Source of the DNA: a virus | Strand: one strand, 5' to 3' | IMG/VR virus record: IMGVR_UViG_3300045988_054218 | Length of the DNA: 64,000 bases | Shown here: positions 3,482 through 41,580 of the stretch, piece by piece | How the letters are laid out: the number at the start of each line of letters is the position of its first letter | How positions within the stretch are numbered: the first letter of the stretch is position 1 | The notes under the pieces: generated by a model | Seen by the model: only the letters and a program-made list of their open reading frames with translations | Databases searched by the model: none | What the model was told of the DNA's origin: nothing | Position numbers and translations under genes: made by a program

Positions 3482-4264
3482 TTATTTTACGTCGATAATG
3501 ACGATTTCAATATCTCCCTCAATGGCCTTGCTAGCCGTGAAGGTAATACCAGATCCAACAGTTGCTTGTGCATCATCAATCTTGTTATAGTCATCATGAT
3601 TACTAATCCAAGAGATGATTGGAGGCACATTGCCATTCTTACCACACTTCAAATTAGTATTACTATAAGAATAGGTATAAGTATCTCCAGAATGTACCCA
3701 GTTGGCTTGAGCAAGAGTAACTGTATAAGAGACGGTAGTTACTTCATCCATCTTATTGTCTGTCTCGCTTTTACTATACACATCTAAGTTAGCTCTCGCG
3801 GCCGCCGCAGTCGTAGCACCGGTACCACCAGCTTTAATAGGTAGAGTACCGAACTTTGGAACACCAGAAACCTCTGCGAATAATGCTCCAGTACCTAACA
3901 GACCAGAGACACCATCAGTAGAATTTCCAGTTACAATAGCACCTTCCTCGATAGATACCATCTTAACTGCATCAGTACCATTACCGAGCAGTAAAGCATT
4001 AACTGTTAAAGTTTTCTGTCCAGTGCCACCCTGTGCAACAGTAGCGGTCATATTAGTAAGAAAGATATCGTCAACGTCAATCTCTTTAGTGTCTTTCTTT
4101 AAAATAGAAGCTGCATATGCATTAACTTGAACACGTCCACCAGCAGTATTAGAAATATCAATGAACAGATTGCCTGTATTCTCGCAGAAATAGGCGTATC
4201 CCTCATGCATGGGGATTTGAGTGAGAAGCTCTTCCTCGCCTCTATAAATCTTAAATAAAGCCAT
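3482..4264 (-). CDS. Tail fibre protein (260 aa, no TAG)
   Basis: Complete ORF with SD AAGGGAGGAT. The N-terminus MALFKIYRGEEELL...GYAYFCENTGNLFIDI resembles the fibre/Mtd-type N-terminal motif. GGTGATTAAAARANLDVY is a typical fibre motif. Stop TAA. Confidence 0.75.
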   Translation of the reverse strand: MALFKIYRGEEELLTQIPMHEGYAYFCENTGNLFIDISNTAGGRVQVNAYAASILKKDTKEIDVDDIFLTNMTATVAQGGTGQKTLTVNALLLGNGTDAVKMVSIEEGAIVTGNSTDGVSGLLGTGALFAEVSGVPKFGTLPIKAGGTGATTAAAARANLDVYSKSETDNKMDEVTTVSYTVTLAQANWVHSGDTYTYSYSNTNLKCGKNGNVPPIISWISNHDDYNKIDDAQATVGSGITFTASKAIEGDIEIVIIDVK

Positions 4265-4283
4265 TATTAAATCCTCCCTTTAA

Positions 4284-6203
4284 TCAAGGCTTTTCTATAA
4301 GGTCTTGGAAAGATCCCCATGAAACAAGGCTCTATACCTAATCTTTAGAATAAGCCGTTTTTGATGTATCTCCATCGCCGCCAATCAGCGAGTTAATATA
4401 ATTGATTGAGTAAGTCTTATTGTCAACATTTTCCTTATAAGACTGCTCGATTAAACTAGAAACGCCACCAGTTAACTACGCTCTATCCCACTCACCAATA
4501 TTAGTTTTATAATACCAATAAGATACGTCTCCACCATTATCAAGCAAGGTCCAAGTAATAGCAAAGATTTTATGAGAATCAATAGTGCCAGAATAGTGTT
4601 CCTGAATATAAGTGACGCCATTGGCTAAACTAGCCGCGAACTCCGCGGTTTCAGTTAAATGATATTCAGCTTCAATATTAAGAGCATCACCAACAGGACC
4701 TTTAATACTTTTCTCACTAGCTTTCCATCCATTAGTGGTTAAAGTATACAAAACGCCAGTCTCGCTATTGAGATAAATATCTCCGATTCTCGCGCCATCA
4801 ATAGCAGTAGTTGCTCCATCAGCAGTAATCTCAAGACCTGCAAATAGCTTACTACCAGTTGGAATCTTGAAAGTAAAGGTTACTGTGTCTTCACTAGTAA
4901 TAGCAGAAGTGACAGACCCTTGCTCTGTCGAACCAACAAAAGTAGAAGAAACCGCGGGCTTCGGAGCCTATGGGAGCTTAAATTCAAGCTGCCATTCGGT
5001 ACCTTCCGCGTTTGTTAGTGTCCTTTCAACTAGCGGAACCGCAGGTTTAAATCCCTCATCGCCTTCGGTATAAGGAGCGATAGCACTAGCTTTGATCACT
5101 GGTAGTGGTTGCTAAATACTTGCTTGATATTCAAAGACACAAGTAGTATCATCTGTCTTACTAGTTACTTTATAAATGAAACCAGTGGCTTCATTGATAT
5201 AGTAATCTCCAACTCCATAATTGGCGAAAAGTGGATCGGTAAGAGTGTATGTTTTACCGGTTTTTTGTCCTAATAAACTACCATAATAGAACTTAACCGC
5301 ACGAGGCAATTCAAAATGTAATTTAGGTTCATTGACCGTTCCAACATCAGTTACTTTAGGCTCAAAGTCTGGCGCTCTAGTAATCGTCTCTGGTGCAGCC
5401 ATCACTTGGCTACGAGGCAGAGAAAATGTCAAAATAGGATGCTTATGGAGAGTATCTTCTTCACTATAACCAAAACTCACGGTTGGCTCAGCATTAGCAT
5501 TTAATACTTCGTGAAGAATGTTACTATCTAAAAATTCCTGAGCTACAGGTAATTGGAATTTAAGTACAGGTCGGTTAATATCAGCTAAATCAAGTCTGAC
5601 CTTTGGTTCTTCCCCAACCCCAATCACATCAACTGTAACCTAATCAATTACTTGAGACTGCGGGATATTGAAATGCAAGGTTGGATTGTCAATATCATCA
5701 TCGTTATATTCAACACTTGGCTTTTCATCCGCATTTAGAACGGTTGCTTCTTGCGGCATTGACAATACCTATGCTCTTGGCAACTTAAATTGAATAACTG
5801 GCATATCTTGGTTAGATAAATCAGTTTCAATGTCTGGCTGTTCATTCGCATGAAGTACGATTGCGGGTTTTGTAATACTAATCTTTGGAGTATTACCGGT
5901 GCAAGAAGAAATGAGCTTATAGCTAAGGCCACTTCCTTCTCCCGCAGACTCGTCATATACTTTCTACCATAAAGTAGAGTTTAAATTTTTCTTGTCACCC
6001 GCATTTAAGTCATAATTCATGCGGGTCATATATGTAGCGTCAGATGGCAAGCCATAAGACACCATAACAAATTCGCCCACAGAGATAGGAGATGCCCATC
6101 CTTTATCTAAGTCAACTTGCGCTCCATCAGGACCGTAATAAGACTCAAATATCTTTTTAATCTCGAAGCTCTGTCCAGCAGGACCTCCGTAGAAAGATTG
6201 CAT
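4284..6203 (-). CDS. Large tail fibre/structural protein (639 aa, TAG-recoded)
   Basis: ATG at 6203 follows GGATAAGGAGG. ORF-track pieces 5964-6203, 5112-5627 and 4476-4751 share one frame and are separated only by TAG. Hand translation of 4475-4284 runs to TGA at 4284-4286. Confidence 0.75.
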
Positions 6204-6215
6204 GTCTATACCTCC

Positions 6216-39346: not shown

Positions 39347-40522
39347 TTATTTCACCTCCCGCATATATTCTTTATCCTTCTCAGCTTCCTATTGTTTCAT
39401 TTCTTCAAACTCTTCATAGTCAGCATCAGTTAATACTTTATCTTCTGGATAATCGTAAATCTCATTATCTTCTTCATCGCCGCCATCAACGTCAATCTTA
39501 GCTTCTCTTTCTTTATCTTGAGCAATAGCTCTAACAGATGCGTCAATCATGTTGCCAAGATTCATTTCTTCTGTAACAAGAGAGTAAGTATAGTGTTGAA
39601 GGTCTTGTAAAACTTTATCTACCTTATCCATCGGTCCATCGGTGTAATAACGAGGAATAAATCCTTCACGCTCGCAAATTGTAACTAATTCACCAATAGA
39701 ATCTACAAATTCACCAGATTCAGCTTTATTCTGCGCGGCTGTGAGCTTAGCGCTCTTCATCAAGCTATCATACATCTTGATCATCTTCTGCGCACCATCG
39801 ACATCGCCGCAGTCTAGAAGCTAGTTAGATTTCAATGAAGTCTTACAAATCATGATAAGAGTATCTTTCATACCCGCTCCTTGAATATCATATGAAGCCA
39901 TCATATCATTATATAATTGCTCCAATCGCACCCATTCCTCTGGGCGATATCCTCGACCCCACTTAAGTCTCAACATCACTTTATCTTCTTCGGTAAGTTC
40001 GTCTGAAAAATCATCATCAGCCTCTGAAGGATCGTAATATTCAGGAGTACCTACAGCCTCTTGTGGCTCAGTTAAAATTTTTGGCTTAGGCGGAGTTCTA
40101 TCCGTCGCAAGCTCAGTTTCAATTTCTTCGCCAGTCATACCTTGCGCTTTCATTTGATTAATCTTACGCATACGCTGCTCTTCTTCAAGCGCTTCGGTAT
40201 CTGCCCAAGAATACTAACTCCACTATTTAAGTTTCATTTTAGATAAGTAACGGCCAATAATAGTTAAGCCAGTTACTTTTTTAGGATCTTTACCATATTT
40301 CTCCAGTAAAGCATCCCATTCTTCTTTAATATAAGGCACATCAATTTCTTGTAAAATCCATTTATACGTTTCTGGGTCCCAGTTATCGACGTGCATGGTT
40401 AAACATTTCTTGCAAATATCCATCTTTCCATCTGGTGGATATTTCTCTACGTTCTTAGAAGTGTAGAATTCACTATCATTCATAGTCTTTCCGCACTTCT
40501 TGCAAAAATGCTGTCCAGCCAT
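39347..40522 (-). CDS. Putative terminase small subunit / packaging accessory protein with an N-terminal zinc ribbon (391 aa)
   Basis: ORF-track pieces 40223-40531, 39821-40171 and 39389-39784 share one frame and join across TAG. The stop TAA abuts the terL ATG. CKKCGK...CKKC motif. The functional call is positional. Confidence 0.5.
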
Positions 40523-40527
40523 ACGAA

Positions 40528-41580
40528 TCAACCTCTTTTCTTATTACGGCATTTCTTACAAATAGAATACCAATTATCTTTACTTGTCTTATTCTTTGAA
40601 AAGAAAAGATTGTTCGCTGGCTTAATCTGTCCACATTTAGAACATTTTTTCATTGGGTAACCACGTTTAGTGTACTCCCAAATTAAGAAATCTTCTTTAG
40701 CCTATTCTGCAATTACCTTTGGAATCTTATTGCGCCACAGACTAGAAATATATTCTACACTATAGGTTTGATGAAATTCTTCATCAAGTAATTTTTGAAT
40801 CTCGCTATTCGGTTTACCATCAATCTTCCACTCAACAATTCTATCATAGATAGGATAATCAGCAAGAGCCTTAGTACATAAATTATCAAAGTCTTGCATT
40901 AAATACCAAGTATCTCCCTCAAACTAATCCCAACTATCTTCCTTGAGTTTAGAATAATTACATAAAATAGCAGATACTACTTTAGTATCCATTAATGAAA
41001 TGCCATCTACAACGATTTCAGAACCATCTAAATAACTCTTATCATCAAGAGGTAATGATGTTCTAGCAGATCTCGTTAATCGACACGGGATAATTGGCTT
41101 CTAATAAGCCTATTTAATAATATATTGATCTTTCCGCATCTCAATTAACGCTTTCTTCATCATAAAAGCAGTCTTACCAGAGGCGTGCTTCGCTGCTGCT
41201 TCCCAAGCGTTTATAGTATCTCGCAGTTGTTTCAAACAGGGGATTGTCTCTAAATCTTTATCTGTAATCGAAATCTTTGGTTGAAAAATTACATTTTTAT
41301 TTTCATTAACTAAATTATAAATACCATCTTCGCCGTTCTCTAACTAACTAACAAGGCCCTCGAAAGAACATTCTCTCTTGTTTACCGTAGTCATACGGTT
41401 ATCTGTCAGTATATTGCGTTCTTTTCGCTCTTGCTTTTCCATGCAGAGAACAAGATAATTACCTAAAATTTCAAGATACGCGGGACTAATATCCGGCGTT
41501 TCCGCAATTATCTTTTCAACTAGCGCTTTACGCTCTTCTGGAGACTCTAGAGTATAATCTAATTTAATCACACTTGTCAT
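40528..41580 (-). CDS. First gene of the late operon: possible transcription regulator with a C-terminal zinc ribbon (350 aa)
   Basis: ORF-track pieces 41344-41580 and 40702-40899 are in one frame and join across TAG codons. Ends ...CSKCGQIKP...CKKCRNKKRG with TGA at 40528-40530. Confidence 0.55.

What the first reader, a model, noticed from the sequence alone, without database searches (positions are those of the whole stretch)
3482..41580. TAG is read as a sense codon throughout this phage; the late module only assembles into genes that way
On the minus strand the ORF-track fragments are not separate genes.
- The 12 fragments between 16745 and 24652 are all in one frame and are separated only by TAG. 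Joined, they give a 2,902-aa protein with a textbook tape-measure N-terminus.
- The same holds for portal, terL and the five large tail proteins.
- I hand-translated several junctions and tails (4475-4284, 7128-6808, 18010-17933, 35705-35565, 39820-39782, plus a scan of 15181-15593). I met only TAG, never TAA or TGA.
- Every stitched gene ends in TAA or TGA placed 5-15 nt before the next AGGAGG and ATG, often overlapping it.
- None of the roughly 95 genes in the window, including the roughly 40 TAG-free ones, uses TAG as its terminator.

This is the signature of genome-wide TAG reassignment. TAG to Gln (code 15) has been reported for some gut phages, but the amino acid is not proven here. TAG codons also cluster near 5' ends: codons 11 and 14 of 8718-11459; 13 and 22 of 6808-8712; 3, 7 and 10 of 56211-56495. 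That placement would make them effective translational gates.
Basis: partly seen in the sequence, partly recalled or inferred. Interest (0 to 1): 0.85.

Follow-up and report, generated by a model that had tools for sequence, protein, structure and literature searches.

The report
Gut phage reading TAG as glutamine

Summary
With TAG read as sense, minus-strand 3482-41580 becomes 26 back-to-back genes. They contain 141 in-frame TAG and no in-frame TAA or TGA (about 980 expected). All 68 genes I defined end in TAA or TGA, never TAG.

New results:
- TAG means glutamine. Among 18 strain-level relatives, TAG exchanges with CAG at the synonymous rate, while comparable non-synonymous exchanges are zero.
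- The suppressor tRNA exists. It lies about 5 kb beyond the window's right end, in an array of about 30 tRNAs.
- TAG is 13 times rarer in the plus-strand small-gene block. It is absent from the major capsid and tail tube genes.
- TAG does not cluster at 5' ends (p=0.12).
- No release factor or synthetase motif turned up in about 126 kb of related genome.

This is a known kind of system. The closest described phage is Phass-1 (TerL 44% identical), and public gene calls already read these genes with TAG as Gln.

The less ordinary part is the tRNA. It is 91 nt with a long extra arm, a U1·U72 mismatch and G73, and belongs to a family found in 33 viral contigs. The recoding papers my one literature search returned do not mention this arm.

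The parts
3482..41580 (-). Late (virion) module: 26 contiguous genes that read through only if TAG is sense. 141 in-frame TAG; stops TAA 20, TGA 6.
   Evidence: Public gene calls on near-identical contigs give the same full-length products.
16724..25432 (-). Tape measure protein, 2,902 aa, 31 in-frame TAG.
   Evidence: Pfam PhageMin_Tail on the public product. tblastn matches to the H1 and E3 tape measure proteins.
37607..39346 (-). Large terminase (YonF-like), 579 aa, 9 in-frame TAG.
   Evidence: tblastn finds 146 phage records, 127 of them covering at least 80% of the query. The listed best hits (Enterococcus H1, Geobacillus E3 and others) match in a single piece. The exact sequence with TAG as Q is in the public collection.
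35565..37169 (-). Portal protein, 534 aa, 10 in-frame TAG.
   Evidence: phrog_2739 portal, E=5e-82, one HMM stretch over residues 61-532 that spans the TAGs.
32528..33556 (-). Major capsid protein (Pfam YonB), 342 aa, no TAG despite 16 Gln codons.
27870..28811 (-). Tail tube protein (Pfam YomU_Tube), 313 aa, no TAG.
12783..16673 (-). Large tail protein, 1,296 aa, 16 in-frame TAG.
8718..11459 (-). Tail or baseplate protein, 913 aa, 13 in-frame TAG (codons 11, 14, 31, 49 and others).
6808..8712 (-). Tail protein, 634 aa, 11 in-frame TAG.
   Evidence: phrog_32343 and phrog_1887 (tail protein). Aligns over its full length to Phass-1.
4284..6203 (-). Tail protein, 639 aa, 8 in-frame TAG.
26143..27702 (-). 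519-aa virion-module protein, 9 in-frame TAG. Many TAG/CAA/CAG exchanges between strains.
39347..41580 (-). First two genes of the module: 391 aa (Pfam YonG_N, 4 TAG) and 350 aa (5 TAG).
1101..2998 (+).
41693..63769 (+). Opposite-strand block of small genes (inferred early). 39 genes, 4 TAG in 4,577 codons, no TAG stops. A few minus-strand genes are embedded in it.
56211..56495 (-). Small ORF with a strong ribosome-binding site and 8 TAG in 94 codons, the highest TAG density in the window.

Best explanation
**What it is**
The window comes from a siphovirus of about 115-149 kb found in gut metagenomes. Its virion genes resemble those of Bacillus phage SPbeta. It uses genetic code 15, in which TAG encodes glutamine and only TAA and TGA terminate.

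**Shown**
- In-frame TAG is confined almost entirely to the 38-kb virion module and a few other genes.
- TAG is evolutionarily synonymous with CAA/CAG.
- TAG never terminates a gene.
- The phage carries its own tRNA with anticodon CUA. It lies about 5 kb beyond the window's right end, in an array of about 30 tRNAs plus a tmRNA. The array has the same orientation as the TAG-poor small-gene block.

**Inferred**
1. The host uses the standard code, so host release factor 1 stops translation at TAG early in infection.
2. The TAG-free genes and the tRNA array are expressed first.
3. Once the suppressor tRNA accumulates, the TAG-rich virion genes can be translated to full length.
4. The tRNA is probably charged by the host glutaminyl-tRNA synthetase. 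It has the acceptor features that E. coli GlnRS reads: an unpaired or weak 1:72 pair, G73, G2:C71, G10 and U35. A class I synthetase leaves the variable-arm side of the tRNA exposed to solvent, so the long extra arm should be tolerated.
5. Full-length yield falls as (read-through efficiency)^n, so TAG number may also set protein dosage. Capsid and tube proteins have 0 TAG, portal 10 and tape measure 31.
For: **Reading frame and stop usage**
- In-frame TAA+TGA is 0 against about 980 expected.
- Stops are TAA 53, TGA 15, TAG 0. Standard-code relatives use TAG for 15-18% of stops.

**One protein, not fragments**
- TerL aligns in a single piece to the listed standard-code relatives; 127 of 146 records cover at least 80% of it.
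- Portal gives a single HMM stretch across the TAGs.
- The whole module is syntenic with Enterococcus phage H1.

**Amino acid**
- In 18 loci 95-99.98% identical to the window, TAG is replaced by CAA or CAG in 106 of 124 exchange observations. It is never replaced by TAA, TGA, TAY, AAG or TTG.
- TAG<>CAG occurs at 33.5 per 1000 aligned codon pairs. Synonymous rates are similar: TTG<>CTG 41.4, TTA<>CTA 37.9, CAA<>CAG 40.3.
- Non-synonymous first-position T<>C exchanges (Tyr/His, Trp/Arg, Ser/Pro) are 0 in 6,566 pairs.
- In distant homologues, Q is the commonest residue at TAG columns: 23/131 against a 4.5% background, p=2e-8. A BLOSUM vote gives Q 83, E 61.

**tRNA**
- A 91-nt tRNA(CUA) is identical in four strains. 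It scores 54.5 bits against the Rfam tRNA model.
- Phass-1 has a homologous 88-nt tRNA annotated Sup-CTA.
- Sixteen distinct family members show compensatory stem changes. Position 1:72 is always weak or mismatched, and N73 is G in 15 of 16.

**Partition between gene blocks**
- Late against early TAG per codon: Fisher p=8e-15.
- TAG share varies among late genes, p=1e-4.

**Literature**
- The same pattern and model are described in 10.1101/2021.08.26.457843.
- TAG as Gln has proteomic support in crAss-like phages (PMC9523058).
Against: - The tRNA is not in the window. I assign it to this phage from contigs that overlap the window's last 1.3-2.9 kb at 98-99% identity.
- Its long variable arm together with G73 also resembles bacterial tRNA-Ser, and a few TAG<>TCN exchanges exist (8 observations, all in one variable gene). 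Charging was not tested.
- Distant homologues alone cannot separate Gln from Glu. Among standard-code relatives the vote is E 54, Q 51.
- A tape measure gene with 31 TAG needs more than 90-95% read-through per codon for a useful yield. I found nothing that neutralises release factor 1.
- "Early" and "late" are inferred from gene content and orientation, not from expression data.
- The host is unknown. The only hints are whole-phage-size contigs binned into Eubacterium and Oscillospiraceae MAGs.
Confidence: 0.92

Rival explanations
1. TAG is a sense codon but encodes serine, or a Ser/Gln mixture. The argument is that the only CUA tRNA found has a long variable arm and G73, which are the marks that seryl-tRNA synthetase reads regardless of anticodon.
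For: - The tRNA is 91 nt with a 20-nt variable region, and N73 is G.
- The phage's own tRNA-Ser genes are 90-91 nt.
- There are five unique TAG<>TCA/TCT/TCG sites.
Against: - TAG<>CAG and TAG<>CAA run at synonymous rates, 33.5 and 21.2 per 1000. TAG<>TCG and TAG<>TCA are only 1.0 and 3.0 per 1000, and all sit in one hypervariable gene.
- Q, not S, is enriched at TAG columns in distant homologues. The BLOSUM vote is Q 83 against S 8.
- The variable-arm stem is only 4 bp, flanked by 4-5 unpaired bases. It is unlike the 6-bp stems of the phage's tRNA-Ser genes.
- Overall sequence identity to those tRNA-Ser genes is the lowest among the phage's ordinary tRNAs; only the odd 8-nt-loop tRNA scores lower.
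Confidence: 0.03
2. The genome uses two codes in blocks. The plus-strand block would use standard code 11 with TAG as a stop, and the virion block code 15.
For: - TAG is almost absent from the plus-strand block.
- Block-wise dual coding has been reported for some crAss-like phages (10.1101/2022.06.29.495998, abstract seen).
Against: - None of the 39 genes in that block ends in TAG (TAA 30, TGA 9). Standard-code relatives use TAG for 15-18% of stops.
- At least two genes in that block carry internal TAG: 41693-42019 at codons 16 and 45, and 47069-47299 at codon 40.
- TAG is therefore avoided there, not used as a stop.
Confidence: 0.03
3. The fragments are real. On this view the region is a decaying prophage, or an assembly or sequencing artefact, full of nonsense mutations.
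For: Under code 11 the region is fragmented into 167 pieces. JGI annotates 171-aa "hypothetical protein" fragments of TerL.
Against: - Only one of the three stop codons occurs in frame.
- The same genes are found in more than 100 blocks of the public assembly collection, on contigs up to 149 kb.
- Purifying selection is evident from the zero non-synonymous T<>C exchanges.
- A matching suppressor tRNA is encoded.
Confidence: 0.005
4. TAG encodes pyrrolysine, as the ARAGORN label "tRNA-Pyl" suggests.
For: - ARAGORN labels every CUA tRNA as Pyl.
- PMC10607447 notes that one Phass-1 Sup-CTA tRNA is most similar to a tRNA-SUP-CTA of Dehalobacter sp., family Desulfitobacteriaceae. From my own knowledge, some members of that family use Pyl.
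Against: - The tRNA has an ordinary D-loop with GG, a TTCGA T-loop, a 5-bp anticodon stem and a long variable arm. From textbook knowledge, tRNA-Pyl instead has a compact core, a 6-bp anticodon stem and a 3-nt variable loop.
- Codon exchange points to Gln.
- No synthetase-like gene was seen in about 126 kb. That scan covered only class I motifs, and PylRS is class II, so this point is weak.
Confidence: 0.005

Closest known systems
Alternatively coded (TAG-recoded, code 15) gut phages: Ivanova 2014 (cited from memory), Borges et al. (10.1101/2021.08.26.457843), Peters et al. 2022 (PMC9523058)
   Same: - In-frame TAG is concentrated in structural genes, and the presumed early genes are compatible with the standard code.
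- The phage encodes its own CUA suppressor tRNA.
- TAG is inferred to encode Gln.
- The host is presumed to use the standard code, and the samples are gut metagenomes.
   Different: - This is a different lineage. It is an SPbeta-like siphovirus with strong Shine-Dalgarno sites, so probably has a Bacillota host. It is not crAss-like or Lak.
- No release factor or synthetase gene was found.
- The suppressor tRNA has a long variable arm.
Phage Phass-1 and the proposed Phassvirus group (Babkin et al. 2023, PMC10607447; NCBI taxon "Caudoviricetes code 15 clade")
   Same: - A siphovirus of about 136 kb from the human gut with a tape measure protein of about 3,150 aa, 36 tRNAs and tRNA-Sup-CTA genes.
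- TAG occurs in 41 ORFs, including TerL, portal and tape measure.
- No dedicated synthetase.
- The virion module aligns protein by protein.
- It carries a homologous 88-nt long-arm tRNA(CUA).
   Different: - It is only distantly related. TerL is 44% identical and the capsid protein 51%.
- megablast of the window's 27.8-41.7 kb stretch against the phage collection, which holds Phass-1, found nothing.
- Phass-1 has three Sup tRNAs, including a 72-nt one. Only one was seen here.
- The 1:72 pair is A:U in Phass-1 and U·U here.
SPbeta-like large siphoviruses with the standard code (Enterococcus phages H1, EF1 and VRE9_4, Geobacillus E3, Lactococcus 949 group, Bacillus SPbeta relatives)
   Same: - The same virion gene order and families: YonF-like TerL, YonB capsid, YomU tube, YonG, YonD, YomW and YomX.
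- Genome sizes are 115-165 kb.
   Different: These phages use code 11. They have no in-frame TAG, and TAG terminates 15-18% of their genes.
Classical amber suppressor tRNAs (supE tRNA-Gln CUA, supD tRNA-Ser CUA, supF tRNA-Tyr CUA) and the E. coli GlnRS identity set (textbook knowledge: Rould 1989; Jahn, Rogers and Söll 1991)
   Same: A CUA anticodon together with a weak or broken 1:72 pair, G73, G2:C71, G10 and U35. These are the features GlnRS reads, and the ones that make amber suppressors prone to Gln charging.
   Different: No known tRNA-Gln has a long variable arm. Here suppression must be close to complete rather than the 10-60% typical of laboratory suppressors.

Membership tests
Code 15 (TAG to Gln) recoded phage | In-frame TAG inside conserved phage genes, with TAA and TGA excluded from the frame | tested here: met
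   141 TAG, 0 TAA and 0 TGA in 12,412 codons, against about 980 expected.
Code 15 (TAG to Gln) recoded phage | TAG is not used as a terminator | tested here: met
   0 of 68 stops. Standard-code relatives use TAG for 6/34 and 6/41 stops.
Code 15 (TAG to Gln) recoded phage | TAG corresponds to glutamine | tested here: met
   Strain-level synonymy with CAA/CAG. Q is enriched at TAG columns in distant homologues.
Code 15 (TAG to Gln) recoded phage | Phage-encoded suppressor tRNA with anticodon CUA | tested here: met
   Absent from the window. Present about 5 kb beyond its right end in four contigs 95-99% identical to the window and in 9 IMG/VR contigs.
Code 15 (TAG to Gln) recoded phage | Recoded codons enriched in structural or late genes and depleted in early genes | tested here: met
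   11.4 against 0.87 per 1000 codons, Fisher p=8e-15. The early and late labels are inferred.
Code 15 (TAG to Gln) recoded phage | Peptides with Gln at TAG positions | not testable with these tools
   Needs metaproteomics of samples that carry the phage.
Code 15 (TAG to Gln) recoded phage | Accessory code-change genes (release factor 2, synthetase). These are present in only some lineages and are not obligatory. | tested here: not met
   No GGQ release-factor motif and no class I HIGH...KMSKS motif in about 126 kb of window plus related loci. This was a crude motif scan, and about 13 kb of the genome was not examined.
Phassvirus genus (Babkin 2023) | Nucleotide identity to Phass-1 at genus level. 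Members were reported at 80-86%. | tested here: not met
   No megablast match of 27.8-41.7 kb against the phage collection that holds OQ749652. TerL is 44% identical at the protein level.
Phassvirus-containing wider clade ("Caudoviricetes code 15 clade") | Shared virion module, large tRNA array and a homologous Sup-CTA tRNA | tested here: met
   18 of 26 late proteins align to Phass-1. The anticodon and variable arms of the tRNA are shared. No phylogeny was built.
Dual-coded (block-wise code 11 plus code 15) phage genome | TAG acts as a terminator in one block of genes | tested here: not met
   0 of 39 genes in the plus-strand block end in TAG.
Pyrrolysine decoding of TAG | tRNA-Pyl architecture and pyl genes | tested here: not met
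   The cloverleaf is ordinary with a long variable arm. Codon exchange points to Gln. pyl genes were not specifically searched for.
tRNA-associated theta (HDV-like) ribozyme recoding module (PMC10879173) | An HDV-like ribozyme within a few nt of the suppressor tRNA | tested here: inconclusive
   No ribozyme match next to the tRNA at E<=1. I do not know whether Rfam 15 includes a theta ribozyme model.

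The most novel reading that the evidence does not exclude
The suppressor is not a mutated ordinary tRNA-Gln. It belongs to a distinct tRNA family carried by phages.
- **Family features.** The anticodon is CUA and there is a long extra arm like that of tRNA-Ser, Leu and Tyr. The anticodon and variable arms are nearly invariant. The 1:72 pair is always weak or mismatched and N73 is G. The tRNA nevertheless decodes TAG as Gln.
- **Distribution.** I found 16 distinct versions in 33 viral contigs of 3-193 kb, 20 of them longer than 80 kb.
- **If charging is really by GlnRS.** It would be the first Gln-accepting tRNA with a long variable arm. The arm might then shield it from host nucleases, or be read by an unknown factor that helps it outcompete release factor 1.
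- **TAG number as a dosage dial.** TAG count per gene is 0 in capsid and tube, 10 in portal and 31 in tape measure. It may set virion protein ratios as well as act as a timing switch.
- **Weaker corollary.** The Thg1-like enzyme encoded next to the tRNA array might repair the U1·U72 end to A1:U72.
Probability: 0.3. Interest if true: 0.6.

Novelty: new member of a known kind. Interest (0 to 1): 0.35.

Why it matters
- **Annotation.** Any code-11 annotation of this very common gut phage shatters its virion genes. The capsid gene alone is indexed in 108 blocks of the public assembly collection. JGI lists 171-aa "hypothetical" TerL fragments, and two function-unknown PHROG families each cover half of TerL. 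Recognising code 15 restores 26 interpretable genes.
- **Biology.** This is another independent lineage, SPbeta-like and probably infecting Bacillota, that follows the "TAG in late genes" pattern. The population data give an unusually clean, proteomics-free proof that TAG is synonymous with Gln.
- **Open questions it sharpens:**
  - How is near-complete read-through of 31 TAG codons achieved against host release factor 1, when no phage release factor or synthetase is apparent?
  - Why does the suppressor tRNA carry a long extra arm?

Tried and rejected
- **megablast of 27.8-41.7 kb against the phage collection:** no match. There is no close cultured or deposited relative.
- **Pfam on six TAG-rich proteins with X at TAG:** essentially nothing. 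PHROGs and the public pre-computed Pfam hits were more useful.
- **My first reading of the 91-nt tRNA as Ser-type, implying TAG=Ser:** rejected by the codon-exchange rates.
- **5'-end clustering of TAG:** tested and not significant.
- **Distant-homologue voting alone:** it cannot separate Gln from Glu, so I relied on strain-level synonymy.
- **HDV-like or theta ribozyme next to the suppressor tRNA:** none detected with Rfam.
- **Release factor and class I synthetase motif scan over about 126 kb:** nothing found. About 13 kb of the genome stayed unexamined.
- **Host identification from genome collections:** it returned only phage-sized or short contigs binned into Collinsella, Eubacterium and Oscillospiraceae MAGs. 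This is too weak to name a host.
- **Strain conservation of the TAG-dense ORF 56211-56495:** the region is too variable between strains to judge.

Full report

Yes. With only TAA and TGA as stops, the longest stop-to-stop ORF rises from 421 to 2,907 codons. Making TGA sense instead gives no such gain (max 421), and making TAA sense gives only a small one (max 631).

The minus strand from 3482 to 41652 then tiles into 26 back-to-back ORFs. Most follow an AGGAGG-type ribosome-binding site. I fixed the start codons and translated all 26. None contains an in-frame TAA or TGA, and all end in TAA (20) or TGA (6).

The 12,412 codons hold 141 in-frame TAG. The off-frame frequency of TAA+TGA predicts about 980 in-frame occurrences, and there are none. 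Under code 11 the 26 genes break into 167 pieces with a median of 47 aa. Under TAG-as-sense they fill 98% of the span.

The individual claims check out:
- The tape measure gene is 16724-25432: 2,902 aa with 31 TAG.
- TerL has 9 TAG and portal has 10. The large tail proteins have 8 to 16.
- The quoted TAG positions are correct.

**2. Are the stitched genes single proteins?**

Yes.
- The stitched TerL aligns in a single piece over 94-99% of its length to the terminases of standard-code phages. These include Enterococcus H1 and VRE9_4, Geobacillus E3, Alicyclobacillus KKP_3916, and the Bacillus and Lactococcus 949 YonF proteins. In all, 146 records match.
- Portal matches phrog_2739 in one HMM stretch over residues 61-532.
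- The whole module is syntenic with Enterococcus phage H1.
- Pre-computed Pfam hits on near-identical public contigs name SPbeta-type virion families: YonB capsid, YomU tube, YonG, YonD, YomW, YomX, YomO and PhageMin_Tail.

**3. Which amino acid does TAG encode?**

Eighteen loci from other metagenomes are 95-99.98% identical to the window.

At in-frame TAG positions the alternative codon is CAA or CAG in 106 of 124 observations. It is never TAA, TGA, TAY, AAG or TTG.

The rates are decisive:

| Exchange | Type | Per 1000 aligned codon pairs |
|---|---|---|
| TAG<>CAG | in question | 33.5 |
| TTG<>CTG | synonymous (Leu) | 41.4 |
| TTA<>CTA | synonymous (Leu) | 37.9 |
| CAA<>CAG | synonymous (Gln) | 40.3 |
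| Tyr/His, Trp/Arg, Ser/Pro (first-position T<>C) | non-synonymous | 0 in 6,566 pairs |

TAG is therefore synonymous with the Gln codons under purifying selection.

Distant homologues agree, though with less resolution. Q is the commonest residue at TAG columns: 23/131 against a 4.5% background, p=2e-8. A BLOSUM vote gives Q 83 and E 61. With standard-code relatives alone, E and Q tie.

**4. The suppressor tRNA**

The window has no tRNA. Contigs that overlap its right end at 98-99% identity carry an array of 19-24 tRNAs plus a tmRNA, starting about 3.7 kb beyond the window. The array includes a 91-nt tRNA with anticodon CUA, identical in four strains.

Longer loci show about 30 tRNAs. They include ordinary tRNA-Gln(UUG), tRNA-Gln(CUG) and tRNA-Tyr.

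The CUA tRNA is a good tRNA, scoring 54.5 bits against the Rfam model. It is unusual in three ways:
- It has a 20-nt variable region with a 4-bp stem.
- It has a U1·U72 mismatch.
- It has G73 and an encoded CCA end.

Phass-1 carries a homologous 88-nt tRNA annotated Sup-CTA, with the same anticodon and variable arms.

A pattern search found this tRNA type in 33 viral contigs of 3-193 kb, 20 of them longer than 80 kb. There are 16 distinct sequences, and their stems show compensatory changes. The 1:72 pair is always weak or mismatched (U:A 5, A:C 4, A:U 3, U:U 3, G:U 1), and N73 is G in 15 of 16.

From established work on E. coli GlnRS, a breakable 1:72 pair, G73, G2:C71, G10 and U35 are the glutamine identity set. 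Class I synthetases also leave the variable-arm side of the tRNA facing solvent. Charging by a host GlnRS is therefore plausible, but I did not test it.

The recoding papers returned by my one search on this point do not use the phrase "variable arm".

**5. Where TAG is used**

| Gene set | TAG / codons | Per 1000 | Share of TAG+CAA+CAG |
|---|---|---|---|
| Late module | 141 / 12,412 | 11.4 | 25% |
| 39 genes of the 41.7-64 kb block (mostly plus strand) | 4 / 4,577 | 0.87 | 3% |

The difference is significant (Fisher p=8e-15). No gene in either set ends in TAG, whereas standard-code relatives use TAG for 15-18% of stops. The genome is therefore not dual-coded. TAG is simply avoided in the presumed early genes.

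Within the late module, usage is heterogeneous (p=1e-4).
- The major capsid, tail tube and five other genes have no TAG.
- Portal, TerL, tape measure and the baseplate or fibre proteins are TAG-rich.

The claimed 5' clustering is not significant (KS p=0.12).

**6. Rest of the genome**

I walked along a 138.8-kb IMG/VR relative that carries the identical tRNA, and along a circular 144.8-kb one. This covered about 126 kb.

Beyond the tRNA array:
- an RNA-repair cluster: RNA ligase, a Thg1-like enzyme (Pfam E=4.8e-31), a kinase and RlaP;
- PhoH;
- an endolysin-like gene with 4 TAG;
- RNase H;
- a gyrase B-like gene with 0 TAG.

Left of the window:
- a diversity-generating retroelement;
- a RuvC-like gene with 9 TAG in 159 codons;
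- dUTPase;
- anaerobic ribonucleotide reductase with 1 TAG.

A crude motif scan found no release factor and no class I synthetase.

**7. Mechanism**

*Shown:*
- TAG is a Gln codon.
- The phage supplies a CUA tRNA.
- TAG is partitioned between gene sets.

*Inferred, following the model of 10.1101/2021.08.26.457843:*
- The TAG-free genes and the co-oriented tRNA array are expressed first, in a host that uses the standard code.
- The virion genes become translatable only after the suppressor tRNA accumulates.

Full-length yield scales as (efficiency)^n. A 31-TAG tape measure therefore needs more than 90-95% read-through per codon. Either release factor 1 is strongly outcompeted or it is neutralised by something I did not find.

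The same arithmetic suggests that TAG number could tune protein dosage: abundant capsid and tube proteins have 0, while low-copy proteins have many. This is my inference and is untested.

**8. Comparison with what is known**

This is genetic code 15 in a gut phage, a phenomenon described in:
- 10.1101/2021.08.26.457843;
- PMC9523058, which gives proteomic proof in crAss-like phages;
- PMC11210395;
- PMC10607447, which covers a distantly related siphovirus group. That group is Phass-1, NCBI taxon "Caudoviricetes code 15 clade".

The window's phage is not in that genus. TerL is 44% identical and there is no nucleotide match.

The public protein collection already holds this exact TerL with TAG translated as Q. 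JGI holds 171-aa fragments of it.

**9. Verdict**

- The 5'-gate sub-claim is not supported.
- Novelty is low: a new member of a known kind.
- The long-arm Gln suppressor tRNA family and the release factor 1 problem are the parts worth following up.

Noticed in passing
window 1-2333 (+): A diversity-generating retroelement. The variable repeat at 1-89 forms the 3' end of a 598-aa Big_3/DUF6273 target gene that ends at 106. The template repeat is at 729-817, is 80% identical, and differs where the template has adenines. The reverse transcriptase is at 1101-2333 (Pfam RVT_1) and has 10 in-frame TAG, three of them consecutive at codons 9-11.
   Followed up: partly
L011 13672-20287; L025 317-11331 (about 3.7-15 kb beyond the window's right end): An array of about 30 tRNA genes covering nearly all amino acids, most with an encoded CCA end. 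It also holds a phage tmRNA with tag peptide DNNYFDSHMAA (DNDYFDSHMAA in one relative).
   Followed up: partly
L011 17368-17442; L025 4959-5035 and 11258-11331: Two tRNA-like genes with 8-nt anticodon loops, which ARAGORN reads as anticodons "tgtt" and "taaa". In some strains the first is replaced by a normal tRNA-Asn(GUU). They may be four-base decoders, frameshift suppressors or pseudogenes.
   Followed up: no
L059 11090-19733: An RNA-repair cluster next to the tRNA array: RNA ligase, a Thg1-like tRNA-His guanylyltransferase family protein (PF04446, E=4.8e-31), an AAA_33 kinase and two metallophosphatases. An RlaP-like nucleotidyltransferase lies at L034 15129-15926. Thg1-like enzymes can rebuild tRNA 5' ends using the 3' strand as template, which is intriguing given the U1·U72 mismatch of the suppressor tRNA.
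   Followed up: partly
window 42019-42804 (+) and 43192-43623 (+): A FolD-like gene (Pfam THF_DHG_CYH_C) and a peptidyl-tRNA hydrolase of the PTH2 type. Both are TAG-free and sit just upstream of, and divergent from, the late module. A phage Pth together with a tmRNA might deal with ribosomes stalled or dropped off at TAG.
   Followed up: no
window 56211-56495 (-): A 94-codon ORF with a strong ribosome-binding site and 8 TAG (85 per 1000). It is the last gene of a minus-strand cluster that starts with a 49-aa product carrying weak RepB-RCR_reg/NikA-like Pfam hits and a DUF6291/HTH protein, both TAG-free. It is a candidate TAG-gated regulator. The region is variable between strains.
   Followed up: partly
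L103 13967-14446 (-); L034 17545-18333; L059 10333-11124, 12434-13168, 16370-17143: Very high TAG density outside the virion module. A RuvC-like resolvase has 9 TAG in 159 codons, and several homing-endonuclease-like genes have 3-7 TAG each. Gyrase B, dUTPase and NrdD have 0-1.
   Followed up: no
window 37607-39346 (-): Two PHROG families of unknown function each match one half of TerL: phrog_15503 on residues 5-229 and phrog_24618 on residues 353-578. JGI also holds 171-aa "hypothetical protein" members of the TerL cluster. Reference families seem to have been built from TerL genes that were fragmented by code-11 calling or split.
   Followed up: partly
L084 / L085 (IMGVR_UViG_3300045988_060821, 144,818 bp): One gene is split across the two ends of this contig, so the assembly is circular or terminally redundant. 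That gives a complete genome of about 145 kb for a close relative.
   Followed up: no
L157-L159: Phage sequence binned into bacterial MAGs: an 8-kb contig in a "Collinsella" MAG with a 100% identical capsid protein, and 148-kb contigs in "Eubacterium" and "Oscillospiraceae" MAGs at 77%. These are probably binning artefacts and give only weak host hints.
   Followed up: no
L031 49519-50000 (Geobacillus virus E3 gp069): The record's annotation of the standard-code relative E3 notes a topoisomerase II gene with a confirmed in-frame stop codon, and peptide sequencing that shows a fusion product. This may be isolated stop read-through in a non-recoded relative.
   Followed up: no
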